DNA of 64,000 nucleotides from Patescibacteria group bacterium (GCA_022710645.1 JAKLGL010000001.1:20614-84613); one strand, 5' to 3'. Positions 1,721-38,849 are shown, numbered from the stretch's first letter. Notes: generated from the sequence alone by a model not told the origin. Program-made: numbers and translations.

Positions 1721-1789
1721 CATTTTTTCCGTCCTCAGTGGCGGATTTTTTTATCTTTTATTTAGCTGGTTTTAGCGAAAAATTATTTA

Positions 1790-1818
1790 TTGCAAAAGAA
1801 GAAGAATTGGAGTAAAAT
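1790..1818 (+). promoter_or_regulatory. sigma70-like promoter TTGCAA-17-TAAAAT upstream of hsdM
   Basis: Hexamers and spacing read from the sequence. Confidence 0.45.
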
Positions 1819-1843
1819 ATAGTCATCTTATTTAATAAAAATT

Positions 1844-3307
1844 ATGTTTGAACAATCATTAAAAAATATAGACGATATTCTTCACCAAGATTCTGGTTGT
1901 GCTACTGAACTTGATTATATTGAACAAACCTCATGGATTTTATTTTTGAAATATTTGGATGATTTGGAAAAAGATAGAGAAACCTCGGCAAAATTGGCAG
2001 GTAAAAAATATGAATATATTATTGACCCTCAATATCGTTGGGAAAAATGGGCGATGCCAAAAAATAAAGATGGCAAAATTGATCACAACACTGCTTTGTC
2101 AGGGGATGATTTGAAAGATTTTGTTAATGGTAAATTATTTCCTTATCTTAAAAAATTTAGAGCAGATGCATCAAGTCCGGATACGATTGAATATAAAATT
2201 GGGGAAATTTTTAGTGAATTAAAAAATAGAATAGAGAGCGGTCACAGACTTCGTGAAATTTTGGAAATAGTGGACGCGCTACATTTTCGTACTGATGCGG
2301 AAAAACACGAACTTTCTCATCTTTATGAAAGCAAAATTGCCAAAATGGGCAATGCTGGACGTAATGGTGGGGAATATTACACTCCAAGACCGCTTATTCG
2401 CACGATTGTAAAAATTGTCGCGCCGAAAATTGGAGAGAAAATTTACGACGGAGCATGTGGCAGCGCCGGCTTTTTGGTGGAAGCTTTTGATTATCTCAAA
2501 TCTGAAAATAAAGATCGTTCTACAAAAAATGATGAAATTTTGCAAAAGAAAACTTTTTACGGCAAAGAAATAAAATCCCTGGCTTATATCATCGGCACAA
2601 TGAATATGATCTTGCATGGCATTGAAGCGCCAAACATCACTCATACCAATACCTTGGCGCAAAATATCAATGATATTCAAGAAAAAGACAGGTTTGATGT
2701 TATCCTTGCCAATCCGCCATTTGGCGCAGGTATTGGCCGAGAAATTCAACAAAACTTTCCCATCAAAACAGGTGAGACTGCTTTTCTTTTTCTTCAACAC
2801 TTTATCAAAATTCTCAAAGCCGGTGGGCGAGCGGGTATTGTTATCAAAAATACTTTTCTTTCCAATACCGACAATGCTTCGGTTAGTTTGCGTAAACTAC
2901 TTTTAGAAAATTGTAATTTGCATACGATTTTAGATTTACCAGGTGGCGCTTTTCAAGGCGCTGGTGTAAAAACTATAGTTTTATTTTTTGAAAAAGGAAA
3001 ACCAACGAAAAATGTTTGGTATTACCAACTCAGCCTTGATCGAAATCTTGGCAAAGGTAATCCACTTAACGAAAATGACTTAGCGGAATTTGTAAAATTG
3101 CAAAAAACAAAAGCAGACAGTGAAAACTCTTGGAGTTTAGATGTGTCTAAAATTGATCAAAATACTTTTGATTTATCAGTTAAAAATCCGAATAAAAAAG
3201 AGGAAAATGTTTTGAGAGAACCGAAGGAGATTTTGGAGGAGATGGAAGAAATAGACGAGGAAAACAAAATAATATTTAAAAAAATCAAAAATTTAGTACA
3301 TGACTAA
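1844..3307 (+). CDS. hsdM: type I restriction-modification system, DNA methyltransferase subunit M
   Basis: HsdM-like N-terminal domain. The N6-adenine methyltransferase motif NPPFG is present, as is an AdoMet-binding DGACGSAGFL motif. Confidence 0.9.
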   Translation: MFEQSLKNIDDILHQDSGCATELDYIEQTSWILFLKYLDDLEKDRETSAKLAGKKYEYIIDPQYRWEKWAMPKNKDGKIDHNTALSGDDLKDFVNGKLFPYLKKFRADASSPDTIEYKIGEIFSELKNRIESGHRLREILEIVDALHFRTDAEKHELSHLYESKIAKMGNAGRNGGEYYTPRPLIRTIVKIVAPKIGEKIYDGACGSAGFLVEAFDYLKSENKDRSTKNDEILQKKTFYGKEIKSLAYIIGTMNMILHGIEAPNITHTNTLAQNINDIQEKDRFDVILANPPFGAGIGREIQQNFPIKTGETAFLFLQHFIKILKAGGRAGIVIKNTFLSNTDNASVSLRKLLLENCNLHTILDLPGGAFQGAGVKTIVLFFEKGKPTKNVWYYQLSLDRNLGKGNPLNENDLAEFVKLQKTKADSENSWSLDVSKIDQNTFDLSVKNPNKKEENVLREPKEILEEMEEIDEENKIIFKKIKNLVHD

Positions 3308-4802
3308 TGCTGATATTAAAATTTATTTTTCTGATTTTTTTGAAGTAGATCATAATAAATTAGAAAGTTATGGCGCTCTTGATATCTCGTTATTGTCAGA
3401 TAATCCAGCTTTTATTGACCCATTTTTAATATTTTATAGTAAAAATAAAGATTATCAACAATTACACCAATCTATTGTCAATTATTTAATCTTTTTAAAA
3501 AAACAAAGTGACGAAGGTAATTTTTCTAATTTATTTTATACATTTCCAGAAGTAAATGAAGTTTGGCTTGGTTTTTCAAAAAGTGGTAATAAAGGACTCG
3601 GTTTAGGACCATATTTTGCTAATGAATTAAATGAAAATCTAATCAATATTTTTAAGGGTAATAAAAATAAAATTACAAAAAGTACACACATTGAAAAACT
3701 TTGTATTATTGGAGAGCGAATTGGAGCGGATAAAATAAGTGATTTTACACTAAATTTGATAAAACATTATTTAGTAAAGTATACTGAAAAATTTGCCATT
3801 GAAAATTTAGACAATAAATACATTTCAAAATTTAGAATATCAAAATTATTTTTTGATTTCGAAAAAAGTAATTGGGTTGATGGTGAAGCTGTCCTTCCAA
3901 TAAATCCGCATGATAAGTCGAACTATGTTTTATTAACACCAAAAGATATTCTAGTGAAAGAGGAAGGGTGGATTTCAGTTAATGATTTTTTAAATAATGA
4001 CGGTTTAATTATAAGTAATATTTCAAATGATGATTTGCGTTATAAAATAAACCAATACTTTCTTTCTTTGATTCCTGATAAGCGTAATAGAAATGGTAAA
4101 CCTGAAAAAGACTTATCGAAGAAAAATACGAGAAATGCAATGAAAGAAACGGCAAAGAAATATCCCGAATTAATCGATTATTTTATTAAATGTAAAGAAG
4201 AAAACGGGCAGGGTGCGGTTGAAGCTAGTTTAGTTGATAATGACTTTTTGAAACAAGTGTTCTATCTTGGTATTAAAGCTATTACTAAAAATTTAAAAAT
4301 TGAAGGTTTTTATAAAACAAATATAAAAGACAATTCATTTTTAGAAACAATAGATAAAATTAAAAAATTTAAGTATGTAATGGAAAAAAGAGATGGGTAT
4401 ACTGTATTTTGGGATGATAAAAAATTAAGAAAATTTAAAGAGCCAGATGTAGACAAAATGATTGATTTAGTTTTCGCTTCTTCTGATTTTTCCATAGATA
4501 AACAAGTTAATAACGGAAGAGGCTCGTCGGATATTAAGGTTTCAAAAGGATCCGCTGATTGTACTATTATAGAAACAAAACTTGCAAAAAACCCTCAATT
4601 AGAAAATAATTTACAAAAACAGTTAAATATTTATAAAGAAGCAAATAATACAACAAATGGTGTTTATGTAATTTTATATTTTAATGAAGATGAATTTAAA
4701 AAGGTGCAAAAAATATTCAAAAAATTAGGAATAGATGATTGTGTTGACAAATGGATATTTTTAATTGATTGTAGAAAGAAAATATCCGCCTCAAAGGCTT
4801 AA
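3300..4802 (+). CDS. uncharacterised 500-aa protein embedded between hsdM and hsdS, with a C-terminal PD-(D/E)xK-like motif (putative nuclease-fold defence protein)
   Basis: It overlaps the hsdM stop by 8 bp, which suggests translational coupling. The C-terminus has '...EPDVDKMIDLVF...(about 30 aa)...CTIIETKLA', a D...ExK pattern. There is no Walker A. Confidence 0.55.
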   Translation: MTNADIKIYFSDFFEVDHNKLESYGALDISLLSDNPAFIDPFLIFYSKNKDYQQLHQSIVNYLIFLKKQSDEGNFSNLFYTFPEVNEVWLGFSKSGNKGLGLGPYFANELNENLINIFKGNKNKITKSTHIEKLCIIGERIGADKISDFTLNLIKHYLVKYTEKFAIENLDNKYISKFRISKLFFDFEKSNWVDGEAVLPINPHDKSNYVLLTPKDILVKEEGWISVNDFLNNDGLIISNISNDDLRYKINQYFLSLIPDKRNRNGKPEKDLSKKNTRNAMKETAKKYPELIDYFIKCKEENGQGAVEASLVDNDFLKQVFYLGIKAITKNLKIEGFYKTNIKDNSFLETIDKIKKFKYVMEKRDGYTVFWDDKKLRKFKEPDVDKMIDLVFASSDFSIDKQVNNGRGSSDIKVSKGSADCTIIETKLAKNPQLENNLQKQLNIYKEANNTTNGVYVILYFNEDEFKKVQKIFKKLGIDDCVDKWIFLIDCRKKISASKA

Positions 4803-4809
4803 TATTTTT

Positions 4810-5922
4810 ATGAAAAATATTATTACTGATAAAAATAATTGGCAAACAAAAAAACTTGGTGAACTTTGCGATATTACAACTGGCAATTCAAATACAGTCG
4901 ATGCTGTCAGTGATGGTCAATATGCTTTTTTTGATCGATCGAAAATAATTAAAAGGAGTCATAATTTTTTGTTTGATTCGGAAGCGTTGATTATTCCAGG
5001 AGAAGGTGCTGAATTTTTCCCTAGATATTATTCAGGAAAATTTAATTTACACCAAAGAGCTTATGCTTTGTTAAATTTTAATAAAAATACAAATGTTAAA
5101 TTTGTAGAATATTTTTTAATTTTTGAACACAAATATTTTGAAAGGGTTGCAGTTGGAGCTACTGCAAAGTCTTTAAGAAGAAGACATTTTGAAGATTTAG
5201 AAATTCCGCTTCCACCCCTCCCCGAACAACATCGCATCGTAAAAATTTTAGATGAAGTTTTTGAAAATATTACGGAAGCGAAAGAAAACGCTGAAAAAAA
5301 TCTTCAAAATTCAAAAGATCTTTTTGAATCGTATTTACAGAATGTATTTGCGAAAAAGGGGAATGGTTGGGAGGAAAAGACTTTAGGCGAGGTGTGTAGA
5401 TATGATAAAACACCATATAAAAAAAGTAATTTACCCTATGTTGGACTTGAAGATATAGAATCAAATTCAGGTAAATTTTTAGGTTCTTTGGATTCAAAAA
5501 AAGTAAAAAGTAATACTTTTCATTTTACACCAGAACATGTTTTATATGGCCGTTTAAGACCTTATTTAAATAAAGTGTTACTTCCAGATTTTGAAGGTCA
5601 TTGTTCAACAGAGATTTTTCCTATAAAGCCCAGCAAAGATTTATATAGAGGGTTTTTATTTTTTTGGCTTATTTCTAAAAAAATAGTTAAAAAAATAAAT
5701 GCCACTTGGACTGGAGCTCGAATGCCTAGGGCAAACATGAATGAAGTATTAGATTTTATAATCCCAATACCATCAATATCCGAACAAAAATCCATCGTTG
5801 CCAAACTTGACGCGCTTTCGGAACAAACTAAAAAACTGGAAGAAATTTATAAACAAAAATTAGCGGATTTGGAGGAATTAAAAAAGTCGGTGTTGAAAAA
5901 GGCTTTTAGCGGGGAATTATGA
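4810..5922 (+). CDS. hsdS: type I restriction-modification system, specificity subunit S
   Basis: Two target-recognition-domain halves separated by the conserved central 'LPPLPEQHRIVKILDEVF' helix, with a C-terminal 'LEELKKSVLKKAFSGEL'. The start was chosen at MKNIITD; the ORF track's 4765 start overlaps the preceding gene. Confidence 0.85.
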   Translation: MKNIITDKNNWQTKKLGELCDITTGNSNTVDAVSDGQYAFFDRSKIIKRSHNFLFDSEALIIPGEGAEFFPRYYSGKFNLHQRAYALLNFNKNTNVKFVEYFLIFEHKYFERVAVGATAKSLRRRHFEDLEIPLPPLPEQHRIVKILDEVFENITEAKENAEKNLQNSKDLFESYLQNVFAKKGNGWEEKTLGEVCRYDKTPYKKSNLPYVGLEDIESNSGKFLGSLDSKKVKSNTFHFTPEHVLYGRLRPYLNKVLLPDFEGHCSTEIFPIKPSKDLYRGFLFFWLISKKIVKKINATWTGARMPRANMNEVLDFIIPIPSISEQKSIVAKLDALSEQTKKLEEIYKQKLADLEELKKSVLKKAFSGEL

Positions 5923-6473
5923 AAGCCAGTGAATATCAAAATCAAATCGCAGAACTTTTAAAACAAATTTTTCCGGCTGAATTGGTAAAAAAGGAATGGG
6001 ATTCGTCTGTGACTTTTAATGACTTGTCTCATAATAAAATGGTTTATGCTCCACGTATAGATGTTGCAATTGGCCCGTTTAATAATCGTTTTAATTTAGA
6101 TGTTGGAGAAATGCCGAGCGATTTGATGAAAAAACATCCTTTTACTAGAATGATGTTTGAAAGGCATTATAATGATATAGATGATTTTGATAAGGTATGG
6201 AATAGTTTTTCTCGTTGTTATTTAGCGATCGAAGTGGAGTTTAGTGGTTCAGCAAAACATATTTTTGGTAGCATAATTAATGCAGTTACAAATGGATCTT
6301 TAGCTTTTATTATTACAAATAAAGAAAATTACAGTAAAGTAGATCGAATTATTAAGTATATTTGGCGACAAGAAAATCAAGAGGTAATAGAATTAAATAC
6401 TTTGAAAAATTTATTGGTATTTGAGGAAGGGGAATTTTTGGAAGTATTGAGGGAATATTTAAAAAAAGTATAA
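5919..6473 (+). CDS. hypothetical protein translationally coupled to hsdS (ATGA overlap), with a possible restriction-endonuclease-like fold
   Basis: 184-aa ORF whose start overlaps the hsdS stop by 4 bp. It has 'YAPRIDVAIGP' and 'LAIEVEFSGSAKH' acidic motifs. The fold assignment is speculative. Confidence 0.5.
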   Translation: MKASEYQNQIAELLKQIFPAELVKKEWDSSVTFNDLSHNKMVYAPRIDVAIGPFNNRFNLDVGEMPSDLMKKHPFTRMMFERHYNDIDDFDKVWNSFSRCYLAIEVEFSGSAKHIFGSIINAVTNGSLAFIITNKENYSKVDRIIKYIWRQENQEVIELNTLKNLLVFEEGEFLEVLREYLKKV

Positions 6474-6557
6474 AATAGGTATAACTAGACTTATTTAAGA
6501 AATTTTATACAAGAGAATTGTAAACAATTTATCTATAATTAGCCAAAAAAAGCAGTA

Positions 6558-6617
6558 TTGACATTACTTATATAATGTAATATACTAGTAATATAACATA
6601 CTAGTATAATCTAATAT
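6558..6617 (+). promoter_or_regulatory. Promoter region (TTGACA-17-TATACT, with a second TATAAT at 6605-6610) carrying two copies of the 8-bp palindrome TACTAGTA
   Basis: TTGACA at 6558-6563. The palindromes are in 'tatactagtaatataacatactagtataat'. The ATG at 6618 has no RBS and sits about 7 nt after the TATAAT, so the mRNA may be leaderless. Confidence 0.45.
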
Positions 6618-8051
6618 ATGAATCAAGAATTAATACAATATTTACAAAAACAAATAAGAACAGTTGAAGATAGGTTATATAAATATACTCACAATACCCA
6701 AGGAGGTAAATTACCTCAACGTTTTTTGTTTGTTAAAATTCAAAAATATCTCAATGATTTTTTAGGTAAAATTTCAGAAAACAGATTAATTATTATTCCT
6801 GGATTACGAGGTGTAGGTAAAACTACTTTGATGGCTCAAATTTGTAGTGATTTAATTGTAAATAAAAAAAATGTAAAAACATTATTCCTGTCATTAGATG
6901 AAGTAAAAAATCTTTTTAATGTTGGGATATCTGAAGTTATGCAAGCATATGAAGAAATTTTAGGTGAAGATTTGGAAAGTTTATCAGAAAATGTTGTTAT
7001 TTTTTTCGATGAAGTGCAAAGTGATCCAACCTGGGCAAAAGCATTGAAAATACTTCATGATAAAACATCCAAAATATTCTTTTGTTGTACAGGATCTTCA
7101 GCAGTAGTATTGCAATCAACCCCAGATATAGCTAGAGGTAGGGCTATATTTGAAAGAATGACCCCGATGTGTTTTATGGAATTTGAAATGGTTAAAGACA
7201 AAGTTTTTCCTACAAAACAATTAAAAAAAGATATATGGGATGCTGTTTATTTTTCCAAAGATGCTGTAGAGGTTTATGATAAATTATCAAAACTACAAAG
7301 TTTGGTAAATAATTATTGGAGCAAGGTGGATAGAAGAGATATGGAGAAATTTTTAGCATATGGATCTTTGCCATTTACTTTACAACTTCCAAACGAAACT
7401 ATTATTAATGATTCTATTTCTTTGTTATTGGATGGAATTATTAAAAAAGATTTACCGATGCTGAATGGTTTTGATGTTAAAACGTTATCACAAGTCAAAA
7501 GATTACTTTTTATTCTTGCTGAAAATGACACGACCAGTATCAATAAATTAGAGGAAATATTAGGTATTGATAGACTAACTATAGCGAGTTTATTGGATGC
7601 TTTAGAAAAAGCAGAATTGATTATAAAAATTTCGGCTTATGGTTCCAATATGTCGGTGGCAAAAAAACCAGCAAAATATCTTTTTATGTCTTCAGCTGTG
7701 CGTATGTCATTTTTTTCAATATCTGGAAATGAAAATACTTTTTCTACAAGAAAAGGAAAGCTCTTGGAAGATTCTGTAGGTACACATTTATATAGAGAAT
7801 TTATACTTAAAAATGATGGCGCTTTACGATATGATAGTTCGCAGAATGGCGCAGATTTTATTTTGCAAATTGCTAATAAAAAACAGATAATAATTGAAGT
7901 TGGTTTGGGTAAAAAAGACAGAAAACAAATTTTAAATAGCATGGAAAGAATTGATTCAGATTATGGCATAGTTTTTTCAAGTAATCCTTTAGTTATTGAT
8001 CAAGATAAAAAAATAGTCAATGTACCTTTGGATTATTATTTTTTAATGTAA
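6618..8051 (+). CDS. AAA+ ATPase of the AAA_14/DUF4143 (COG1373-like) type, embedded in the type I R-M locus
   Basis: Walker A 'GLRGVGKTTL' and Walker B 'VIFFDEVQ'. The C-terminal region 'NGADFILQ...IIIEVGLGKK' resembles the DUF4143 nuclease-like module. Confidence 0.7.
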   Translation: MNQELIQYLQKQIRTVEDRLYKYTHNTQGGKLPQRFLFVKIQKYLNDFLGKISENRLIIIPGLRGVGKTTLMAQICSDLIVNKKNVKTLFLSLDEVKNLFNVGISEVMQAYEEILGEDLESLSENVVIFFDEVQSDPTWAKALKILHDKTSKIFFCCTGSSAVVLQSTPDIARGRAIFERMTPMCFMEFEMVKDKVFPTKQLKKDIWDAVYFSKDAVEVYDKLSKLQSLVNNYWSKVDRRDMEKFLAYGSLPFTLQLPNETIINDSISLLLDGIIKKDLPMLNGFDVKTLSQVKRLLFILAENDTTSINKLEEILGIDRLTIASLLDALEKAELIIKISAYGSNMSVAKKPAKYLFMSSAVRMSFFSISGNENTFSTRKGKLLEDSVGTHLYREFILKNDGALRYDSSQNGADFILQIANKKQIIIEVGLGKKDRKQILNSMERIDSDYGIVFSSNPLVIDQDKKIVNVPLDYYFLM

Positions 8052-8055
8052 TCGT

Positions 8056-10395
8056 ATGAATGAATCAGAAACACGAGCTGAACTCATTGATCCCAAACTG
8101 AAAGCTAGTGGTTGGGGAGAAATAGAGGGCTCAAAAATTTTACGTGAATTTCGAATTACTGATGGACGTATTCAAACAGGTGGCACACGCACAAAGCCGG
8201 AAATAGCCGACTATATTTTGGTTTATAAAAATCAAAAGCTTGCGGTGATTGAAGCAAAAAAAGAAAGTTTGTCGGCTAGCGAGGGTGTAGCTCAAGCTAA
8301 AACTTATGCGGAAAAATTACAGATTGATTTTACTTATTCCACCAATGGCAAAGCAATTTACGAAATTTCAATGAAAACAGGTAAAGAAGGATTAGTGCGA
8401 GATTTTCCGACCCCCGACGAATTATGGAATAGAGTAAATGCAAAATCAAATGAATGGAAAGAAAAATTTGCAACTGTGCCAAACGAGGGAGATTATGGTA
8501 GTCGTTATTATCAAGAGATTGCGATAAACAATGTTTTGAATGCTGTGGCTGAAGGTAAAAATAGAATTCTTTTGACTATGGCAACTGGTACGGGTAAAAC
8601 CGCGGTAGCTTTTCAAATTGCTTGGAAACTTTTTCAAACGCGTTGGAATTTACAAAGAAATGGCGAACGCCGACCGAGAATTTTGTTTTTAGCTGATAGA
8701 AATATTTTGGCCGACCAAGCTTACAATGCTTTTTCTGCTTTTAAAGAAGACGCGCTTGTTCGAATTAATCCACTTGATATTCGTAAAAAGGGCAAAGTGC
8801 CAACTGGTGGAAGTATCTTTTTTACAATTTTTCAAACTTTCATGAGTGGTCCGAATAATACTTCATATTATGGAGATTATCCAGCGGACTTTTTTGATTT
8901 TATTATTATTGATGAGTGCCATCGTGGTGGAGCAAATGACGAAAGTAATTGGCGAGGAATTATGGAATATTTTGCTCCAGCAGTTCAACTTGGTTTAACC
9001 GCTACCCCACAAAGACGAGACAACGTTGATACCTATAGATATTTTGGGGAACCAGTTTATATTTATTCCCTCAAAGAAGGCGTAAACGATGGATTTTTAA
9101 CCCCGTTTAAAGTAAAAAGAATCAAAACTACCTTAGATGACTATGTTTATACGGTAGAAGATCAGATTGTGGAAGGGGAAGTTGAAGAAGGAAAAATTTA
9201 TGAAGAAGAAGATTTTAATAGAATTATAGAAATTCAAGAAAGAGAAGCAAAACGTGTAAAAATCATGTTTAGTGAAATAAATCAAAATGAAAAAACCATT
9301 GTGTTTTGTGCTACTCAAAGTCATGCTGCGGCTGTTCGCGATTTGATCAACCAATTGAAAGAAAATAAAGATCCAAATTATTGCGCTCGTGTAACAGCCA
9401 ATGATGGCGCGCGAGGAGATCAATTTTTACGTGATTTTCAAGATAATGAAAAAACTATTCCAACAATTTTGACCACTTCGCAAAAACTCTCAACTGGTGT
9501 GGATGCTCGCAATGTTCGCAATATTGTGTTGATGCGACCGGTAAATTCCATGATTGAATTTAAACAAATTATTGGACGCGGAACTCGTCTTTTTGATGGA
9601 AAAGAATTTTTTACTATTTTGGATTTTGTAGATGCTTATAAAAATTTTTCTGATCCAGCTTGGGACGGAGATCCTGTAGAAGTGATTGAAGAAAAACCTA
9701 CTAAAAAGAAGGTTGATAAAATAAAAGAGCCCAAAGCAAAATACGAACCGATTAGCGAAGAAGGAGAAGGCGAAGAACCAAAAAAGAAATTGGTTATTAA
9801 ATTAAGAAATGGAAAAGAACATGAAATTCAACACATGGTCTCAACTTCTTTTTGGAGTGCAGATGGCAAACCAATCACTTTGCAAGAATTATTAAATAGT
9901 ATGTATGAAAAATTGCCAGAATTTTTCAAAAATGAAGACGATTTACGTAGAATTTGGTCTAACCCTATTACTCGTAAAGCATTATTAGAAAAAATAGCTG
10001 ATGCAGGATATGGAAGAGAAGAATTGGAAACATTGCAAAAAATGATTGATGCAGAAAATAGCGATTTATTTGATGTTTTGTCTTTCTTTTTATATTCAGT
10101 TAAACCGATCACTAGAGAACAAAGAGTGGAAAAATCAAAGAAAACCATTTTTGATAAATTAGACAATGAACAAAAAGAATTTTTAGAATTTGTTTTGCAA
10201 AAATATATTGATAATGGCGTGGAAGAGTTGGAAGAAGAAAAATTACCTTTGTTGTTGAATTTAAAATATCATGCGATTGCCGATGCTATTAATCAGCTTG
10301 GTGATGTGGATAAAATTCGTTCGGTATTTTTTAGTTTCCAAAAGGAACTATATACTAAAGAAAAAATTAGTAATTTGTTTAGATGTTTTATTTAA
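8056..10395 (+). CDS. hsdR: type I restriction enzyme, R subunit (EcoEI-like short form)
   Basis: N-terminal 'ETRAELIDPKLKASGWG' HsdR_N motif. SF2 helicase motifs 'MATGTGKT' and the DECH box 'IIDECHRGG'. The C-terminal domain is EcoEI-R-like. Confidence 0.9.
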   Translation: MNESETRAELIDPKLKASGWGEIEGSKILREFRITDGRIQTGGTRTKPEIADYILVYKNQKLAVIEAKKESLSASEGVAQAKTYAEKLQIDFTYSTNGKAIYEISMKTGKEGLVRDFPTPDELWNRVNAKSNEWKEKFATVPNEGDYGSRYYQEIAINNVLNAVAEGKNRILLTMATGTGKTAVAFQIAWKLFQTRWNLQRNGERRPRILFLADRNILADQAYNAFSAFKEDALVRINPLDIRKKGKVPTGGSIFFTIFQTFMSGPNNTSYYGDYPADFFDFIIIDECHRGGANDESNWRGIMEYFAPAVQLGLTATPQRRDNVDTYRYFGEPVYIYSLKEGVNDGFLTPFKVKRIKTTLDDYVYTVEDQIVEGEVEEGKIYEEEDFNRIIEIQEREAKRVKIMFSEINQNEKTIVFCATQSHAAAVRDLINQLKENKDPNYCARVTANDGARGDQFLRDFQDNEKTIPTILTTSQKLSTGVDARNVRNIVLMRPVNSMIEFKQIIGRGTRLFDGKEFFTILDFVDAYKNFSDPAWDGDPVEVIEEKPTKKKVDKIKEPKAKYEPISEEGEGEEPKKKLVIKLRNGKEHEIQHMVSTSFWSADGKPITLQELLNSMYEKLPEFFKNEDDLRRIWSNPITRKALLEKIADAGYGREELETLQKMIDAENSDLFDVLSFFLYSVKPITREQRVEKSKKTIFDKLDNEQKEFLEFVLQKYIDNGVEELEEEKLPLLLNLKYHAIADAINQLGDVDKIRSVFFSFQKELYTKEKISNLFRCFI

Positions 10396-10398
10396 AAT

Positions 10399-10764
10399 AT
10401 GTCTAATAATAAACTAAAAATAACCATTGCTAGTGTATTTTTATTTATTATTTTTTCTTTTTATTCCTATTCCGACATCTGTTGTATGTTCGGCGCGACG
10501 AGATATTATGGTTGGCCTTTTTCCTTTATTTCTTTGAATAAAACCGTAGAAACTTATGAAGAGGCGAGTAGGATAAAAACCGATTGGTTTTGGAATTTGA
10601 AAAAAGACGGGTGGGAGTTTTCTTTTTCCGCTAACCCTATTTCACCAAAACCTTTTCAAGCCATCGCCTTGAATAATCCGGTGATAGGTATGGTATTTGA
10701 TGTAGGTTTGAGTTTTTTGTTGGTGTGGGGAATAAATAAAATTTATAAAAAATTTTTAAATTAA
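10399..10764 (+). CDS. hypothetical small membrane protein, 4 bp downstream of hsdR
   Basis: 121 aa with an N-terminal TM helix. It is tightly linked to hsdR. Confidence 0.4.
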   Translation: MSNNKLKITIASVFLFIIFSFYSYSDICCMFGATRYYGWPFSFISLNKTVETYEEASRIKTDWFWNLKKDGWEFSFSANPISPKPFQAIALNNPVIGMVFDVGLSFLLVWGINKIYKKFLN

Positions 10765-10774
10765 TTTTTATTTT

Positions 10775-11410
10775 ATGAATGGAAAAAATATTTTAATTAT
10801 TATTGGGGCTACTGCTTTGCTTGGTGCTGGAGTCTATGCTGGTTCAGAATTCATAGATTGGAAAGCAGAACACGATAAAATGGCGCAAGATATAGCAGAT
10901 AAAAATTTTTGGCAAGATAAACAAACTGAGTGGGAAGAAGATTTGGCTCGTAAAAATAATAAGGAAGAAATAAATTGGGATGAAGAAGGCGCGCAAATGA
11001 TGTATGAATTGTCAGATGAATCAGCTTTGGGAAAATATTTAGAAATAGATTGGGAAAAAGAAACAGATAAAATGTCTGATGATTTAAAAATTAAACTTTA
11101 CTCTGGTGTTTGGGAACAAATTGCTACTTATATGAATGGTGAATTGCAAGCAGATAGCGCTAAAGCAACTCTTGTTTTGAGTAAAGATAGTTATGAATCC
11201 AAAACCAGTTGCGTCTCTACCGGAGGTTTGAAAATTTTGGATGAAGTGATGGCAATGACAGTGAAAACAAATACTTGTTATGCTGGCATGATAGGTAGTA
11301 CTGTTGACTATAGTTACGAACTTTCCAAAGACGCGCAGATTTTAGTTTTGAATTATAGTCAAGGAGATTTTTCTATGCGTGAGGTTTTCAAAAGAGTGAA
11401 AAATAAATAA
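10775..11410 (+). CDS. hypothetical secreted protein (signal peptide)
   Basis: The N-terminal 'ILIIIGATALLGAGVYA' looks like a signal sequence. The rest is acidic and repetitive (W/E-rich). Confidence 0.45.
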   Translation: MNGKNILIIIGATALLGAGVYAGSEFIDWKAEHDKMAQDIADKNFWQDKQTEWEEDLARKNNKEEINWDEEGAQMMYELSDESALGKYLEIDWEKETDKMSDDLKIKLYSGVWEQIATYMNGELQADSAKATLVLSKDSYESKTSCVSTGGLKILDEVMAMTVKTNTCYAGMIGSTVDYSYELSKDAQILVLNYSQGDFSMREVFKRVKNK

Positions 11411-11413
11411 AGT

Positions 11414-12022
11414 TTGTATATGAAAAAACAAATCATCGTCATCCACGGCGGAGATAGTTTCAACAGTTACAAACAATATTTTTCCAATTTAAAAAACATC
11501 AAAATCAATTTTGAGAAAATGTTTCGTAAAGGTTGGAAAGATGGTCTCCCCAAAATGCTTGGCAAAAACTATCAAGTAATAATGCCGAGCATGCCCAATA
11601 AATCCAATGCCCGTTTTGAGGAATGGAAGATTTGGTTTGAAAAATTGTTCCCATTTTTGAATAGAGAAGTTGTGTTGGTCGGTCATTCGCTTGGCGCGAG
11701 TTTTTTATTGCGTTATTTATCCGAAAATAAATTCCCGAAAAAAATCAAAGCGACTTTTTTGGTTTCCGCGCCATATCAACAAAAGGGGATGCGTACCGAT
11801 TTGGGCGATGATTTTCGTTTTGGCCAAGATATGAGTTTGTTAATCAAACAATCCCCGAGGCTGGTTTTTTATCAGAGTCAAGACGATAAGGTCGTGCCTG
11901 TCTCCGATTTTGAAAAATTCAAAGATCTTTTTCCCGGCGCTTGTTTTGTAGAGTTCAAAGATAGAGGACATTTTGGTCAAGAAAATTTCCCGGAAATAGT
12001 CAGGGATATAAAGAAAATATAA
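11414..12022 (+). CDS. alpha/beta-fold serine hydrolase (YdeN/RBBP9-like)
   Basis: Nucleophile elbow 'VGHSLGAS' with downstream Asp and His candidates, in about 200 aa. Confidence 0.6.
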   Translation: MYMKKQIIVIHGGDSFNSYKQYFSNLKNIKINFEKMFRKGWKDGLPKMLGKNYQVIMPSMPNKSNARFEEWKIWFEKLFPFLNREVVLVGHSLGASFLLRYLSENKFPKKIKATFLVSAPYQQKGMRTDLGDDFRFGQDMSLLIKQSPRLVFYQSQDDKVVPVSDFEKFKDLFPGACFVEFKDRGHFGQENFPEIVRDIKKI

Positions 12023-12078
12023 TAAAGAGGATACTGGATATTAAAACCCCGGCTGAAAGGCCGGGTTTTATAATAGGA

Positions 12079-34929: not shown

Positions 34930-36186
34930 ATGTTAGACATTAAATTCATTCGCGAAAATAAAGAATTGGTAAAACAAAATTGTCTTGACCGTCGTGCCAA
35001 AGCCGATATTGATTTGGTTTTATCTCTTGACGAAGCAAGAAAAAATTTATTGAAACAAGCGGAGGAATTACGCGGTTTACGCAACGCAAAATCCAAAGGC
35101 AAACCTACGGATGAAGAAATCGCGAAAATGCGCGAGGTGGGGGATAATATCGCAAAAATTGAAAAAGAATTAGGAGAAGTGGAAAAAAGATATTTGGAAG
35201 AAATGATGAAAATTCCCAATTTGACTCATCCGGAATCTCCGATTGGTGAAGAAGCTGATTTCAAAATAGTTTATAAAAATTTCGAACCGAAAGATTTTTC
35301 TTTCAAACCGCTTGATCACGAAGAATTGATGATCAAAAATGATTTGATAGATTTTGAAAGAGCCACCAAAACCAGCGGGGCTAAATTTTATTTTTTAAAA
35401 AATAATCTGGTTCGCCTGAATCAAGCGTTATTGAATTATGGTATGGATATTGCCGTGAAACACAGCTTTGTTTTATTGGAAACCCCGGACATGGCCAAAA
35501 ATGAAATTTTGCAAGGTATAGGTTTCAATCCGAGAAGCGGGGAAGAAACTCAGATTTATTCCATAGAAAATTCTGATTTGAGTTTGATAGGCACGGCGGA
35601 AATTACCGTCGGAGGATATCATTCCAACGAAATTTTGGATTTGAAAGACGGACCGAAAAAATACATCGCTTTATCTCATTGTTTTCGCACCGAGGCCGGA
35701 GCTTATGGTAAAACCAGCAAAGGACTTTATCGCGTTCATCAATTCACCAAATTGGAAATGTTTGTCTTTTGTAAACCGGAAGACAGTGAAAAATATCATG
35801 CAGAAATTTTGAAAGTAGAAAAAGAAATTATGGACGGATTGGAAATTCCGTATCAAGTCATAGATATTGCCAGTGCCGATTTGGGCGGTCCCGCTTATCG
35901 CAAATTTGATATAGAAGGGTATATGATTATGAAAGGCGACGATAAACATCAAGGTGGTTATGGAGAACTGACATCTTGTTCCAACTGTACCGATTATCAA
36001 GCCAGACGATTGAATATCAAATATAAAAAAGATGACGGTTCCAACGCCTTTGTACACACGTTAAACGGCACTGCCGTAGTACTAAGTCGTTTTCCGATAG
36101 TTATAGCGGAAAATCATCAACAAGCGGACGGAACTATAGAAGTGCCGAAAGCTCTCCAAAAATATTGCGGATTCAAAAAAATATAA
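34930..36186 (+). CDS. serS: seryl-tRNA synthetase
   Basis: N-terminal coiled-coil arm 'MLDIKFIREN' and class II catalytic motifs ('FRTEAG', 'TLNGTAVV.SR'). Confidence 0.9.
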   Translation: MLDIKFIRENKELVKQNCLDRRAKADIDLVLSLDEARKNLLKQAEELRGLRNAKSKGKPTDEEIAKMREVGDNIAKIEKELGEVEKRYLEEMMKIPNLTHPESPIGEEADFKIVYKNFEPKDFSFKPLDHEELMIKNDLIDFERATKTSGAKFYFLKNNLVRLNQALLNYGMDIAVKHSFVLLETPDMAKNEILQGIGFNPRSGEETQIYSIENSDLSLIGTAEITVGGYHSNEILDLKDGPKKYIALSHCFRTEAGAYGKTSKGLYRVHQFTKLEMFVFCKPEDSEKYHAEILKVEKEIMDGLEIPYQVIDIASADLGGPAYRKFDIEGYMIMKGDDKHQGGYGELTSCSNCTDYQARRLNIKYKKDDGSNAFVHTLNGTAVVLSRFPIVIAENHQQADGTIEVPKALQKYCGFKKI

Positions 36187-36189
36187 TTT

Positions 36190-37251
36190 ATGACTTCGGG
36201 AGGAAAAAGACCGTATCTTGATTTTAAAAAATACAGATACGACGAAGAAAAACGTCCGATTTTTTCTTTTCCCAAAAAACCGGCGATTAAACAAATCAAA
36301 AGTTTTGAAGCTGCGACCCCCGTCGAATCGGTTAATTTTATCGTTGGTAACAATCCTTTTCGCAAAGAGCCGAAAAAAAAGATTAATTATAAAAAGTTTT
36401 TCTTCGGTTTTTTCATTTTTTTCTTTTTAGCCGCGTGGTTTTGGCTTATTTTTTATTTACCTTATTTTGATATTGAAAATATTTATTATTCAGGCATAAA
36501 AACAACGAATGAGGCGACTTTAAAAACCTATGTCTACGACAATTTCATCAAATCCGGTAAATATTGGCATAGAAATAATTATTTTGTCACTGACGCGGAA
36601 GAGATCGTTATAGGTATAAAAAATAATTTTGATTTAAGCGATGTCAAAGTGACCAAGATTTTTCCCGATAAATTACAGATTGATGTGATAGAGAAGAGTC
36701 ACAGTATGGTTTTGTGCACGCAACGAGGTTATTATCTACTAGACAGCGATGGTGGTGTAATAAAGATTTTTTGGGAAAAAGAATTTACTAGCACAAGTAT
36801 TTTTACCACAGGAACCGTTCAAAATGAAGTTAACGGACCGACATCAACCACATCGAGCATGCCGGTAGCTGAAGAAATATTCAAACCGACAAGACAAAAA
36901 ATAGATAAAGAATATCAAAATTTACCACTGTTTTGCATTGACGAAGAAAAAAAACTATCTTTAGTCAATAAAAATGTCGTTTCCGAAGCTTTTCTCAAAA
37001 ACATCATTGATTGGCATGAAGCTTTAATCAAGGAGGGGATAGGATCTCCGGAATATTTTCTGGGACAGCTCAATCAATGGACCGGCTTTGAAGCTTATTT
37101 CAAAGATAAGAAATGGCATTTAAAATTATCTCCGGAAAATATCCAATCGCAAATTATAAAAATCAAAGCTGTTATTGAAAGTAAAGAAAGCATATCTCAA
37201 ATCAAAGAATATATAGATGTTCGCTTTGGAGATAGAGTGACTTGGAAGTAA
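36190..37251 (+). CDS. FtsQ/DivIB-like (POTRA-domain) membrane-anchored protein
   Basis: Single N-terminal TM, followed by a POTRA-like 'YWHRNNYFVTDAEEIVIGIKNNFDLSDVKVTKIFPDKLQIDVIEKSHSMVL'. Confidence 0.45.
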   Translation: MTSGGKRPYLDFKKYRYDEEKRPIFSFPKKPAIKQIKSFEAATPVESVNFIVGNNPFRKEPKKKINYKKFFFGFFIFFFLAAWFWLIFYLPYFDIENIYYSGIKTTNEATLKTYVYDNFIKSGKYWHRNNYFVTDAEEIVIGIKNNFDLSDVKVTKIFPDKLQIDVIEKSHSMVLCTQRGYYLLDSDGGVIKIFWEKEFTSTSIFTTGTVQNEVNGPTSTTSSMPVAEEIFKPTRQKIDKEYQNLPLFCIDEEKKLSLVNKNVVSEAFLKNIIDWHEALIKEGIGSPEYFLGQLNQWTGFEAYFKDKKWHLKLSPENIQSQIIKIKAVIESKESISQIKEYIDVRFGDRVTWK

Positions 37252-37335
37252 GAGAAGCGGTGATTTGCAAGATTTTAAACAATGTGAAATAATATACCTA
37301 ACTTCGTATAACAGAGGATAACCGAAGTAAAGACT

Positions 37336-38307
37336 ATGCAAAAATCAAATACATCGCTAATAAAGCATATCCCAACCTTTTTGGAATACTGTGAGGTAGA
37401 AAAAGGTCTTTCTCCCGTATCCTCCAAAAACTATCACAATTTTTTAAAAGTTTTTATTGAATGGCTTGATAAATCCAAATTAAACAATCTCTTACCACAC
37501 GAATTGACACCTGAACATATTTGGAGTTACCGCCTCTTTTTATCTCGTAAACAGGACTACAAGGGCGCCTATCTCAAAAAGACTTCTCAGAGCTATTATC
37601 TTCGAGCTTTACGAAATTTCCTGAAATATCTGACAGACAAAGACATTGTCACATTACCGTCGGAAAAAATAAAATTACCAAAATTGACTGATAAAGACAA
37701 ACAAATTAAATTTTTGAGTTTTGATCAGGTAGAAAAACTACTATCCATGCCAGACACTTCAAATACCGAAGGGTTACGCGATAGAACCATCCTTGAAGTA
37801 CTCTTCTCCACTGGTATGCGTGTCTCAGAGCTTACTTCGCTTAACCTAAAACAGTTTAATGTTAATGATTTAATAGCTGGAAAAATTCCAGATTTTACCG
37901 AACTTAATATTATAGGTAAAGGCGGTAAGATGCGCACGGTTTATTTTTCCAAAAGATCCCTGGAATGGTTGGCTAAATATCTCAAAGAACGCAAAGATAT
38001 GCTCCCTCCCCTGTTTATCAATTACTTCAAAGCTGCCAAAGACGAGGATGCCAGACGTTTATCACCCAGATCGGTTGAAAGTATCGTGCGTAAATATACG
38101 ATGATGGCCGGATTGCCGGTAGAAGCCACACCACATACTCTGAGACACAGTTTTGCCACTGATTTACTCTCCCACGGCGCTGATTTACGTTCAGTCCAGG
38201 AACTCTTGGGTCATAGCAATGTTGCCACTACTCAAATCTATACTCACGTAACCAACGCCGGATTAAAAAATGTTTATAAAAGCTTTCATAGTGGAGCGAA
38301 GAAATAA
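37336..38307 (+). CDS. xerD: tyrosine site-specific recombinase XerC/XerD
   Basis: Catalytic residues in context 'TPHTLRHSFATDLLSHGADLRSVQELLGHSNVATTQIYTHV'. Core-binding N-domain present. Confidence 0.85.
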   Translation: MQKSNTSLIKHIPTFLEYCEVEKGLSPVSSKNYHNFLKVFIEWLDKSKLNNLLPHELTPEHIWSYRLFLSRKQDYKGAYLKKTSQSYYLRALRNFLKYLTDKDIVTLPSEKIKLPKLTDKDKQIKFLSFDQVEKLLSMPDTSNTEGLRDRTILEVLFSTGMRVSELTSLNLKQFNVNDLIAGKIPDFTELNIIGKGGKMRTVYFSKRSLEWLAKYLKERKDMLPPLFINYFKAAKDEDARRLSPRSVESIVRKYTMMAGLPVEATPHTLRHSFATDLLSHGADLRSVQELLGHSNVATTQIYTHVTNAGLKNVYKSFHSGAKK

Positions 38308-38309
38308 AT

Positions 38310-38795
38310 ATGAAATTTCTGTCCGATCAAGAAGAAAAACAAGCACTGGATTATATTGAAAAAGCGGCTAAAATAGCTCTCTATTCAACCTGTGAACGTG
38401 CTCGTTGCGGTTGTGTAATAATAAAAGACAATAAAATCATCGGCGAAGGATTCAATAATCCGCCCCAAAATAAAATTGAACAAAAAAGATGTTCTATTTC
38501 TAAAGATACTTACCATAAAAAGGTTACGGATAAAACTTGTTGCGTCCACGCTGAACAACGAGCAATTATGGATGCATTAAGAAATAATCCAAATGAACTG
38601 AACGGATCAAGATTGTATTTTGTTCGATTAGATAAAGACGGTAATTCTCAAAAAGCCGGCAAACCTTATTGTACTATTTGCAGTAAAATGGCGTTGGATG
38701 TTGGAGTAGTTGAATTTGTTTTATGGCATGACCAGGGTGTATGCGTTTATAATACCGATGAATACAATCTTCTTTCGTATCAATACCAAGATTAA
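38310..38795 (+). CDS. dCMP/cytidine deaminase family zinc enzyme
   Basis: 'CVHAEQRAIMDAL' (H-A-E) and 'PYCTICSKMA' (PCxxC) zinc motifs. Confidence 0.75.
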   Translation: MKFLSDQEEKQALDYIEKAAKIALYSTCERARCGCVIIKDNKIIGEGFNNPPQNKIEQKRCSISKDTYHKKVTDKTCCVHAEQRAIMDALRNNPNELNGSRLYFVRLDKDGNSQKAGKPYCTICSKMALDVGVVEFVLWHDQGVCVYNTDEYNLLSYQYQD

Positions 38796-38849
38796 TTGAA
38801 AGACTAATAAAAACGCCCTGATAAAACAGGGTGTTTTTTTATTTATATT

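What the first reader, a model, noticed from the sequence alone, without database searches (positions are those of the whole stretch)
1790..10764. Type I R-M locus with three embedded non-canonical genes (hsdM-X-hsdS-Y-Z-hsdR)
The canonical M, S and R subunits are all present and intact, but the locus is interrupted. (i) A 500-aa ORF is translationally coupled to hsdM, with an 8-bp overlap. (ii) A 184-aa ORF is coupled to hsdS by an ATGA overlap. (iii) A 477-aa AAA/DUF4143 ATPase has its own promoter. Two tightly linked small membrane or secreted ORFs follow hsdR. Type I loci are known hotspots for embedded anti-phage modules, of which PrrC and RloC are established precedents. None of X, Y or Z resembles those known modules by motif, and two or three of them carry nuclease-fold-like D...ExK signatures. 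This is the most system-like accessory region in the window and could be an undescribed R-M-associated defence module.
Basis: partly seen in the sequence, partly recalled or inferred. Interest (0 to 1): 0.78.

Follow-up and report, generated by a model that had tools for sequence, protein, structure and literature searches.

The report
Restriction operon carrying three hitchhiking nuclease genes
An intact Type I restriction-modification operon in a tiny candidate-phyla-radiation (CPR) bacterium has three unrelated predicted DNA-cutting genes inserted between its subunit genes; these are independent, swappable passengers of a kind already catalogued as candidate anti-phage genes, not one new three-gene system.

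Summary
The gene order hsdM-X-hsdS-Y-Z-hsdR sits at 1844-10395, with the stated overlaps and a promoter-like site before Z.

The "one undescribed module" reading is not supported.
- The same hsd backbone (HsdM 63-86% and HsdR 63-82% identical) occurs elsewhere with no cargo, with X only, with Y+Fic, with Z, or with other genes.
- The gaps between M and S and between S and R therefore behave as two variable cargo slots.
- X, Y and Z never recur as a trio in the loci I fetched.

Each of the three is a predicted PD-(D/E)xK nuclease.
- **X** (500 aa) is Pfam DUF8370+DUF8371. It has an N-terminal region with no relative among solved structures and a C-terminal nuclease domain. It occurs in at least 566 species. 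It is mostly solitary in defence or mobile contexts, but it is repeatedly coupled by overlapping start and stop codons to DNA methyltransferase genes.
- **Y** (184 aa) matches no library family. It has a minimal restriction-endonuclease fold and belongs to a family of about 400 clusters. It is usually the tail gene of methyltransferase or ATPase defence operons.
- **Z** is AAA_14+DUF4143, which is PADLOC candidate PDC-S01. It travels with its own conserved promoter and palindrome.

This is the known "guilt-by-embedding" phenomenon (Payne et al. 2024). No anti-phage activity has been shown for any of the three. Interest is moderate.

The parts
1728..1745 (+). Terminator-like hairpin ending the upstream HD-domain gene; left edge of the unit
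   Evidence: 6-bp stem, 4 GC pairs, T run; HD_4 gene at 1121-1720
1790..1818 (+). Weak promoter-like site upstream of hsdM (TTGCAA-17-TAAAAT, 9 of 12)
   Evidence: consensus match only, not distinguishable from chance
1844..3307 (+). hsdM, Type I N6-adenine DNA methyltransferase (487 aa)
   Evidence: Pfam N6_Mtase 2.5e-66 and HsdM_N; PADLOC MTase_I 1.7e-161; NPPF at residue 290
3300..4802 (+). X: DUF8370+DUF8371 protein (500 aa). N-terminal region without a solved structural relative plus a C-terminal PD-(D/E)xK nuclease domain (about aa 380-495; D411, E425, K427). 8-bp overlap with hsdM
   Evidence: PADLOC PDC-M36A 5e-23 over aa 10-234 only
4810..5922 (+). hsdS, specificity subunit with two target-recognition domains (ORF listed from TTG 4765; ATG 4810 is the likely start)
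   Evidence: Methylase_S 1.5e-34, 2 stretches
5919..6473 (+). Y: 184-aa stand-alone restriction-endonuclease-fold protein (D48, E105, K113 invariant); ATGA overlap with hsdS
   Evidence: no hit in Pfam, NCBIfam, PADLOC or PHROGs
6558..6619 (+). Promoter-like site TTGACA-17-TATACT (6558-6586) overlapping an inverted repeat (arms 6570-6590 and 6599-6619); travels with Z
   Evidence: conserved upstream of Z homologues in L169, L170 and L171
6618..8051 (+). [not shown]
   Evidence: DUF4143 listed in the PD-(D/E)XK superfamily
8056..10395 (+). hsdR, Type I restriction subunit (779 aa), starting 4 nt after Z
   Evidence: ResIII 1.4e-39, EcoEI_R_C, HSDR_N; PADLOC REase_I 3e-141; GTGKT 178, DECH 286, N-terminal D..EAK
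10399..10764 (+). 121-aa ORF with two hydrophobic segments, 3 nt after hsdR; whether it belongs to the unit is uncertain
   Evidence: no family hit; not found next to the same hsd backbone elsewhere
10775..11410 (+). 211-aa ORF with an N-terminal hydrophobic segment; whether it belongs to the unit is uncertain
   Evidence: no family hit
11414..12022 (+). alpha/beta-hydrolase gene, tightly packed after the small ORFs; probably a host gene co-transcribed with them
   Evidence: Abhydrolase_1 and Ser_hydrolase
12048..12065 (+). First strong terminator-like hairpin downstream (7-bp stem, 6 GC pairs); right edge of the tightly packed gene run

Best explanation
The locus is a functional-looking Type I restriction-modification operon from a Candidatus Magasanikbacteria (CPR) genome. 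It serves as a scaffold for three independently acquired, single-gene nuclease cargoes.

The hsd backbone has two cargo slots, one between M and S and one between S and R. In related genomes these slots are empty or hold different genes. Here the M|S slot holds X, and the S|R slot holds Y and Z.

Each cargo is predicted to be a Mg2+-dependent PD-(D/E)xK nuclease with its own control part.
- X pairs a nuclease domain with a large conserved N-terminal region, which I infer to be a sensor or regulator.
- Y is a bare nuclease core that depends on its operon partners or on its own specificity.
- Z pairs a nuclease domain with an AAA_14 ATPase and a winged helix, and brings its own promoter and palindrome. 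Because hsdR starts 4 nt after Z, that promoter probably also feeds hsdR.

The most likely role is additional, autonomous anti-phage or anti-plasmid defence layers. These would be co-inherited and co-expressed with the restriction system, following the published "guilt-by-embedding" pattern.

**Shown here:** gene order, couplings, folds, invariant catalytic residues, cargo variability, and defence or mobile-element neighbourhoods.

**Inferred:** nuclease activity, the defence role, sensing by the X N-terminal region, and autoregulation of Z.
For: **Intact RM genes and couplings:**

**Same backbone, different cargo.** HsdM is 63-86% and HsdR 63-82% identical to the window's proteins in L081, L087, L088, L158 and L169. 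Their gene orders are:
- L158: M-S-R, with no embedded gene and Y about 2.7 kb downstream.
- L088: M-X-S-R.
- L087: M-X-221aa-S-[HTH/SocA_Panacea,130,78]-R.
- L081: M-[100,159]-S-Y-Fic-R.
- L169: M-DUF3800-[132,196]-S-Z-R.

**X.**
- More than 1177 homologues and at least 566 species genomes.
- Only 12 of 78 loci have an hsdM within 10 kb, and there is no conserved partner.
- Immediate neighbours are enriched in Type I, Type III and Type IIG RM genes, GmrSD, AAA_15/21, integrases and transposases.
- It also occurs on conjugative plasmids.
- D411, E425 and K427 are invariant in 25 diverse sequences.

**Y.**
- 401 clusters at 50% identity.
- D48, E105 and K113 are invariant in 60 sequences.
- The upstream neighbour is co-directional in 59 of 67 loci. 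Those neighbours include Eco57I/MmeI-type methyltransferases, SMC/AAA_21 ATPases, reverse transcriptases and AIPR.
- Y-Vsr-Dcm-HATPase_c_3 operons also occur.

**Z.**
- PDC-S01 at 2.5e-32.
- Walker A and B motifs and D413...E427...K433 are invariant.
- The S-Z-R position, with the same 4-nt Z/hsdR gap, recurs in L169. A Z-hsdM arrangement occurs in L171-173.
- The promoter and inverted repeat are conserved in four contexts.

**Composition:** the cargo region is 26-31% GC against 34-41% elsewhere in the window.

**Concept published:**
Against: - No activity has been shown for any of the three.
- One PDC-S01 representative was tested in E. coli B against T4, T5 and T7. It was not among the four candidates that protected.
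- The tight translational coupling of X to methyltransferase genes in several unrelated RM types fits functional dependence on the RM system at least as well as autonomy.
- Conserved overlaps could also be a by-product of genome compaction in CPR genomes.
- The defence-island context is correlative.
- The neighbour annotation used my own crude ORF calls.
Confidence: 0.6

Rival explanations
1. RM-coupled guard (PrrC-like logic). X, and possibly Y, is a latent nuclease held in check by the methyltransferase complex it is co-translated with. It would be released when a phage anti-restriction protein disables the Type I enzyme, giving a second line of defence that depends on the RM system.
For: X starts inside or right at the stop codon of a DNA methyltransferase gene in several RM lineages:
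- hsdM in the window, L087, L088, the JGI contig, L009 and L176.
- An MmeI-type enzyme in L177.

On a Paenarthrobacter plasmid, X closes a methyltransferase-helicase-GIY-YIG operon.

The M-X-S order holds in two hsd lineages that are only about 38% identical and have different gene orders.

The hsdS-Y 4-bp overlap recurs in L081.

PrrC is an established embedded precedent.
Against: - Most X homologues (66 of 78 loci) have no hsdM within 10 kb, so the family must be able to work alone.
- X, Y and Z show no similarity to PrrC or RloC models.
- Most Y loci are not RM-linked.
- There is no evidence of a physical interaction.
Confidence: 0.18
2. Selfish mobile nuclease genes (free-standing homing-endonuclease-like). 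X, Y and Z would spread by cutting cargo-free copies of conserved loci such as hsd operons and being copied in during repair. Their presence would then reflect their own mobility, not host defence.
For: - All three inserts are PD-(D/E)xK nucleases.
- They show a presence/absence pattern at precise gene junctions of an otherwise conserved backbone.
- X sits beside Tn3 and IS elements on a plasmid.
- The cargo has low GC.
Against: - The same slots also hold non-nucleases such as Fic, DUF3800 and a SocA/Panacea pair.
- Each family occurs in many different contexts rather than at one target site.
- X and Z are large multidomain proteins, unlike typical homing enzymes.
- No flanking repeats, tRNA gene or integrase are present here.
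Confidence: 0.12
3. Non-defence housekeeping or regulatory roles. For example, Z could be a transcription or replication-associated ATPase that controls hsdR expression, and X or Y could be DNA-repair nucleases that happen to lie in the operon.
For: - Z has a MarR-like winged helix and a conserved palindrome over its promoter, and it lies directly upstream of hsdR or hsdM.
- A Y homologue follows a DNA ligase gene.
- The one tested PDC-S01 representative gave no protection.
Against: - Distribution is patchy and the cargo is replaceable within one backbone.
- Neighbourhoods are dominated by defence and mobile-element genes.
- The compact M-S-R operon exists without any of the three.
- No housekeeping family matches in Pfam or NCBIfam.
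Confidence: 0.08

Closest known systems
Genes embedded in Type I RM, BREX, DISARM and Hachiman systems ("guilt-by-embedding"; PADLOC PDC/HEC candidates; Payne et al. 2024, bioRxiv 10.1101/2024.01.29.577857)
   Same: Non-hsd genes lie on the same strand, nested between the hsd genes. The cargo is variable. Z matches PDC-S01 over its whole length, and the N-terminal half of X matches PDC-M36A.
   Different: X as a whole (N-terminal region plus PD-(D/E)xK domain, single gene) is not a PADLOC model. PDC-M36 is a three-gene cassette whose other members are absent here. Y matches no model. Three separate cargoes sit in one operon of a CPR bacterium.
PrrC/EcoprrI and RloC (anticodon nucleases embedded in Type I RM loci)
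   Same: A latent nuclease gene sits inside an hsd operon. PrrC is almost always found embedded in this way.
   Different: No sequence match to PrrC or RloC models. The nuclease fold is PD-(D/E)xK rather than an ABC-ATPase with an anticodon-nuclease domain. Most X, Y and Z homologues are not embedded.
AAA_14/DUF4143 (COG1373) family = PADLOC PDC-S01
   Same: Z has both domains, a Walker A/B ATPase, and the C-terminal D...E...K motif. The family is described as an ATPase fused to a PD-(D/E)xK domain.
   Different: Nothing structural differs. Noted here for this CPR clade are a conserved promoter and palindrome, and recurrent placement directly upstream of hsdR or hsdM.
Single-protein nuclease defences with a sensor or control domain plus a PD-(D/E)xK effector (Shedu SduA, Cap4, Can2, NucC, HamA)
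   Different: These matches rank no higher than ordinary restriction enzymes and Holliday-junction resolvases. No DUF4263, SAVED or CARF match was found. The N-terminal region of X has no solved relative.
Minimal Type II restriction endonucleases of the BglII/BamHI/BstYI group, and the R.BspD6I small subunit
   Same: Y has a comparable or smaller size, the same fold, and a D...ExE...K-type active site. It is often adjacent to DNA methyltransferase genes: Dcm+Vsr, Eco57I-like, or hsdM/S.
   Different: There is no sequence-level relationship. Its partners are heterogeneous and include ATPases and reverse transcriptases. No cognate methyltransferase is uniquely paired with it.

Membership tests
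Type I restriction-modification system | HsdM with an N6-adenine methyltransferase domain and the NPPF catalytic motif | tested here: met
   N6_Mtase 2.5e-66 and HsdM_N; NPPF at residue 290
Type I restriction-modification system | HsdS with two target-recognition domains | tested here: met
   Methylase_S, 2 stretches; PADLOC Specificity_I 5e-62
Type I restriction-modification system | HsdR with an N-terminal PD-(D/E)xK nuclease and an SF2 helicase motor | tested here: met
   HSDR_N, ResIII, Helicase_C, EcoEI_R_C; GTGKT, DECH, D..EAK
Type I restriction-modification system | Restriction and modification activity | not testable with these tools
   needs methylome data or enzymology
PADLOC PDC-S01 (AAA_14 + DUF4143) | Near full-length match to a PDC-S01 model, with both Pfam domains | tested here: met
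   PDLC04787 2.5e-32, profile positions 14-398 of 412; AAA_14 and DUF4143 above their cut-offs
PADLOC PDC-S01 (AAA_14 + DUF4143) | Anti-phage activity | not testable with these tools
   One representative tested elsewhere was not among the protective candidates; most PDCs are unvalidated
PADLOC PDC-M36 (three-gene cassette A>>B>>B) | Full-length M36A plus two M36B-family genes | tested here: not met
   X matches only profile positions 8-225 of 457; the cassette is FAM_01399>>FAM_00303>>FAM_00303; no other gene here hits a PDC-M36 model
Pfam DUF8370 + DUF8371 | Matches to PF28123 and PF28130 | tested here: met
   Precomputed hits on the identical protein P0001 and on all 120 listed homologues; names given. 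The local Pfam copy lacks these models
PD-(D/E)xK nuclease superfamily (X C-terminal domain, Y) | alpha-beta-beta-beta-alpha-beta core, with an acidic residue at the start of strand 2 and E-x-K (or a variant) in strand 3 | tested here: met
   [not shown]
PD-(D/E)xK nuclease superfamily (X C-terminal domain, Y) | Metal-dependent phosphodiester cleavage | not testable with these tools
   needs biochemistry
PrrC / RloC anticodon nucleases | ABC-type ATPase head plus a C-terminal anticodon-nuclease domain | tested here: not met
   No PrrC or RloC model hit for X, Y or Z at E<=0.01; the folds differ
Shedu (DUF4263) | DUF4263 nuclease domain | tested here: not met
   [not shown]

The most novel reading that the evidence does not exclude
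X (DUF8370/DUF8371) could be a methyltransferase-coupled guard nuclease. It would be co-translated with, and held inactive by, the modification complex of Type I, Type IIG or Type III systems. It would be released through its structurally novel N-terminal region when phage anti-restriction factors disable that complex. Y could be a trans-acting minimal nuclease subunit that different methyltransferase- or ATPase-based systems recruit. That would make this operon a layered, interdependent immune unit rather than a set of passengers.
Probability: 0.15. Interest if true: 0.7.

Novelty: new member of a known kind. Interest (0 to 1): 0.42.

Why it matters
The locus gives a clean natural example of how restriction operons act as exchange platforms for other immune genes. 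One hsd backbone is seen with at least six different cargo sets.

It also points to two uncharacterised nuclease families that are worth testing.
- **X** is widespread (at least 566 species). It has a large conserved region with no solved structural relative, and it is repeatedly co-translated with DNA methyltransferases.
- **Y** is absent from all annotation libraries searched.

CPR bacteria have very small genomes, so carrying four nucleases in one operon suggests strong pressure from phages. If X or Y depended on the RM complex, that would be a new example of guard-type immunity. If not, they are further single-gene candidates for defence catalogues.

Tried and rejected
- **One conserved X-Y-Z module:** rejected, because the cargo differs in every relative examined.
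- **A conserved partner gene for X or Y:** none found by clustering neighbours.
- **Phage origin of X:** the IMG/VR pattern scan and a tblastn search of 50,697 phage records found nothing. PHROGs does hold a full-length family, phrog_30194 at 3e-23, which is probably of prophage origin.
- **Solved relatives by sequence:** none for X or Y.
- **AFDB search:** this could have characterised the X N-terminal region, but the library was unavailable.
- **Weak Pfam hits at E<=10 for the X halves and Y:** none.
- **Literature on PDC-M36 and DUF8370/DUF8371:** none.
- **Island borders:** no tRNA gene, integrase or meaningful flanking repeats.
- **Paralogues of X, Y, Z or the hsd genes elsewhere in the window:** none.
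- **Labelling bug:** the table labelled every hit "Y". This was corrected, and only one search is used.

Full report
**1. Observation**

The ORF map and the family scans confirm a co-directional run of genes.

| Gene | Coordinates | Size |
|---|---|---|
| hsdM | 1844-3307 | 487 aa |
| X | 3300-4802 | 500 aa |
| hsdS | 4810-5922 (ORF listed from TTG 4765) | 385 aa as listed from TTG 4765 |
| Y | 5919-6473 | 184 aa |
| hsdR | 8056-10395 | 779 aa |

X begins inside ATGACTAA, an 8-bp overlap with hsdM. Y begins in an ATGA overlap with hsdS. hsdR starts 4 nt after Z.
- hsdS most likely starts at the ATG at 4810, 7 nt after the X stop codon.
- The three hsd products look intact. HsdM has NPPF. HsdR has GTGKT, DECH and an N-terminal D..EAK. 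HsdS has two Methylase_S stretches.
- The only real intergenic gap, 6474-6617, holds the best sigma-70-like match of the 11-kb region: TTGACA-17-TATACT at 6558-6586. It overlaps an inverted repeat.
- After hsdR come a 121-aa ORF with two hydrophobic segments, a 211-aa ORF with one, and an alpha/beta hydrolase gene. All are separated by 3-10 nt, and a strong terminator-like hairpin follows at 12048.
- The organism is a Candidatus Magasanikbacteria (CPR) bacterium. Identical proteins lie on a 562,946-bp contig.
- The X-to-Z stretch is 26-31% GC, against 34-41% in the rest of the window.

**2. What each embedded gene is**

*X*
- X has no hit in the local Pfam or NCBIfam copies. The precomputed annotation of the identical protein and of all listed homologues gives PF28123 (DUF8370) plus PF28130 (DUF8371).
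- PADLOC's PDC-M36A model matches residues 10-234 only. PDC-M36 is a three-gene cassette that is not present here.
- Foldseek finds nothing significant for the whole chain, and there is no sequence relative in PDB.
- In an alignment of 25 sequences down to 41% identity, D411, E425 and K427 are invariant. They sit where the catalytic residues of this fold belong.
- The first ~370 residues have many invariant polar residues (D34, D40, H56, E84, H130, K133, D144, D148) and a conserved glycine-rich loop that is predicted disordered (residues 86-100). I read this region as a ligand-binding or regulatory module. That is an inference.

*Y*
- Y matches nothing in Pfam, NCBIfam, PADLOC or PHROGs.
- The word-indexed search found 8 homologues. 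An exhaustive profile search found 401 clusters at 50% identity.
- D48, E105 and K113 are invariant in 60 sequences.
- A few family members are fused to a GNAT acetyltransferase or to a winged helix.

*Z*
- Walker A, Walker B and a C-terminal D413...E427...K433 are invariant.
- DUF4143 is listed in the PD-(D/E)XK superfamily survey. PDC-S01 is described as an ATPase fused to that fold.

**3. Are they a system?**

No. I fetched relatives of each gene.

*X*
- The closest X relatives (70-86% identity) all sit right after hsdM in the same backbone, but the rest of the operon differs:
  - L088: M-X-S-R.
  - L087: M-X-221aa-S-[HTH/SocA_Panacea,130,78]-R-GmrSD.
  - A JGI contig: M-X-S-Fic-R-integrase.
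- A 55% relative sits in an R-M-X-S operon of a different hsd lineage, with 4-bp overlaps on both sides (HsdM of that lineage is about 38% identical).
- A 49% relative overlaps the stop codon of an MmeI-type enzyme gene.
- On a Paenarthrobacter plasmid, X closes a methyltransferase-helicase-GIY-YIG operon.
- Across 78 species-level loci, only 12 have an hsdM within 10 kb, and no partner is conserved.
- Immediate neighbours are rich in Type I, Type III and Type IIG RM genes, GmrSD, Schlafen-like helicases, AAA_15/21 ATPases, integrases and transposases.

*Y*
- A 59% relative repeats the hsdS-Y overlap in M-[100,159]-S-Y-Fic-R.
- Other relatives follow a reverse transcriptase or a DNA ligase gene.
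- In the Y-family loci examined (80 from the metagenome scan plus three from earlier look-ups), the upstream gene is co-directional in 59 of 67. It is often an Eco57I/MmeI-type methyltransferase, an SMC/AAA_21 ATPase, a reverse transcriptase or AIPR.
- Several loci are Y-Vsr-Dcm-HATPase_c_3 operons.
- Only three loci are Type I or MTase-linked.

*Z*
- A 78% relative occupies the same S-Z-R position, with the same 4-nt gap before hsdR, in M-DUF3800-[132,196]-S-Z-R.
- A 75% relative sits immediately upstream of the hsdM of a different Type I system, which itself embeds Dcm+HATPase_c_3.
- A 77% relative is not RM-linked at all.

*Backbone*
- HsdM and HsdR in L081, L087, L088, L158 and L169 are 63-86% identical to the window's proteins.
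- L158 is the compact M-S-R form, with 4-bp overlaps and no cargo.
- So one backbone has two slots whose contents vary, and the window's combination was not seen again.

**4. A detail that supports Z as a self-contained cassette**

The ~100 nt upstream of Z align across the window, L169, L170 and L171, even though the flanking genes are unrelated (hsdS, a MopE-like gene, RadC). The -35 and -10 hexamers are conserved, and so is the ATATACTAG...CTAGTATA inverted repeat. Z has a MarR-like winged helix at residues 295-336. Autoregulation is therefore plausible but untested. Because hsdR follows Z by 4 nt, this promoter probably also supplies hsdR.

**5. Mechanism**

Best-supported view (confidence 0.6): the operon is an ordinary Type I system that has collected three independent single-gene nucleases. 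They are co-inherited and co-expressed with it and act as extra immune layers. This is the published "guilt-by-embedding" pattern.

The rivals are:
- A PrrC-like guard relationship for X, and perhaps Y. This is supported by repeated translational coupling to methyltransferase genes. It is weakened by the majority of solitary homologues.
- Selfish homing-type nuclease genes. This is supported by the all-nuclease cargo and the precise presence/absence pattern. It is weakened by non-nuclease cargo in the same slots and by the many different contexts.
- Regulatory or housekeeping roles.

Direct evidence of function is lacking. The one PDC-S01 gene tested elsewhere gave no protection against T4, T5 or T7.

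**6. Comparison with known systems, and novelty**

- The hsd genes meet every sequence criterion tested for a Type I system.
- X is a member of DUF8370/DUF8371 but not of PDC-M36.
- None of the three is PrrC, RloC or Shedu.
- Y is an unnamed family with a known fold.
- The finding is therefore a new instance of a known kind of arrangement, with two uncharacterised families worth experimental follow-up.
- It is neither a new type of system nor a conserved module.

**7. Limits**

- Neighbour analyses used simple ORF calling and greedy overlap removal.
- The estimate that Type I genes are enriched near X has no matched control.
- Many metagenome loci are short.
- The AFDB structure library was unavailable.
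- Structure predictions rest on alignments of 25 and 8 sequences.

Noticed in passing
window 6558-6619; L169, L170, L171 at 6850-7023: A promoter-like site and an inverted repeat (ATATACTAG..CTAGTATA) are conserved upstream of Z homologues in four unrelated genomic contexts. This suggests a self-regulated cassette whose promoter may also drive hsdR.
   Followed up: partly
L158, L088, L087, L081, L169 (related hsd operons): One hsd backbone (HsdM 63-86% and HsdR 63-82% identical) carries six different cargo sets in two slots. They include Fic, DUF3800 and an HTH/SocA_Panacea pair. L158 is the empty M-S-R form.
   Followed up: yes
L163 7206-11333; L171 10182-12906: A tight Y-Vsr-Dcm-HATPase_c_3 operon occurs in L163. 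The same Dcm+HATPase_c_3 pair is embedded in another Type I operon in L171. This hints that Y-family nucleases can belong to a Dcm-centred system.
   Followed up: partly
P0132, P0134, P0136, P0226 (Y-family proteins): Some Y-family members are fused to a GNAT acetyltransferase domain or to a winged-helix (HVO_A0114) domain.
   Followed up: no
L177 3335-7497; L175 1074-8449: X overlaps the stop codon of an MmeI-type RM gene in L177. In L175, on a conjugative Paenarthrobacter plasmid, X closes a methyltransferase-helicase-GIY-YIG operon. So X's coupling to methyltransferase-containing operons is not limited to Type I systems.
   Followed up: partly
L169 12535-13656; L170 8509-9633: A second, shorter AAA_14/DUF4143 paralogue lies near the Z homologue in two CPR contigs. 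The family is multi-copy in small genomes.
   Followed up: no
window about 36000-40000: Cumulative GC skew peaks near 36-38 kb, and long ORFs switch from the + strand to the - strand at about 38.8 kb. This looks like a replication terminus.
   Followed up: no
window 10399-12022: Two small hydrophobic ORFs without any family match, and an alpha/beta hydrolase gene, are packed 3-10 nt apart directly after hsdR, with no terminator until 12048. They are probably co-transcribed with hsdR. They are not found beside the same backbone elsewhere.
   Followed up: partly
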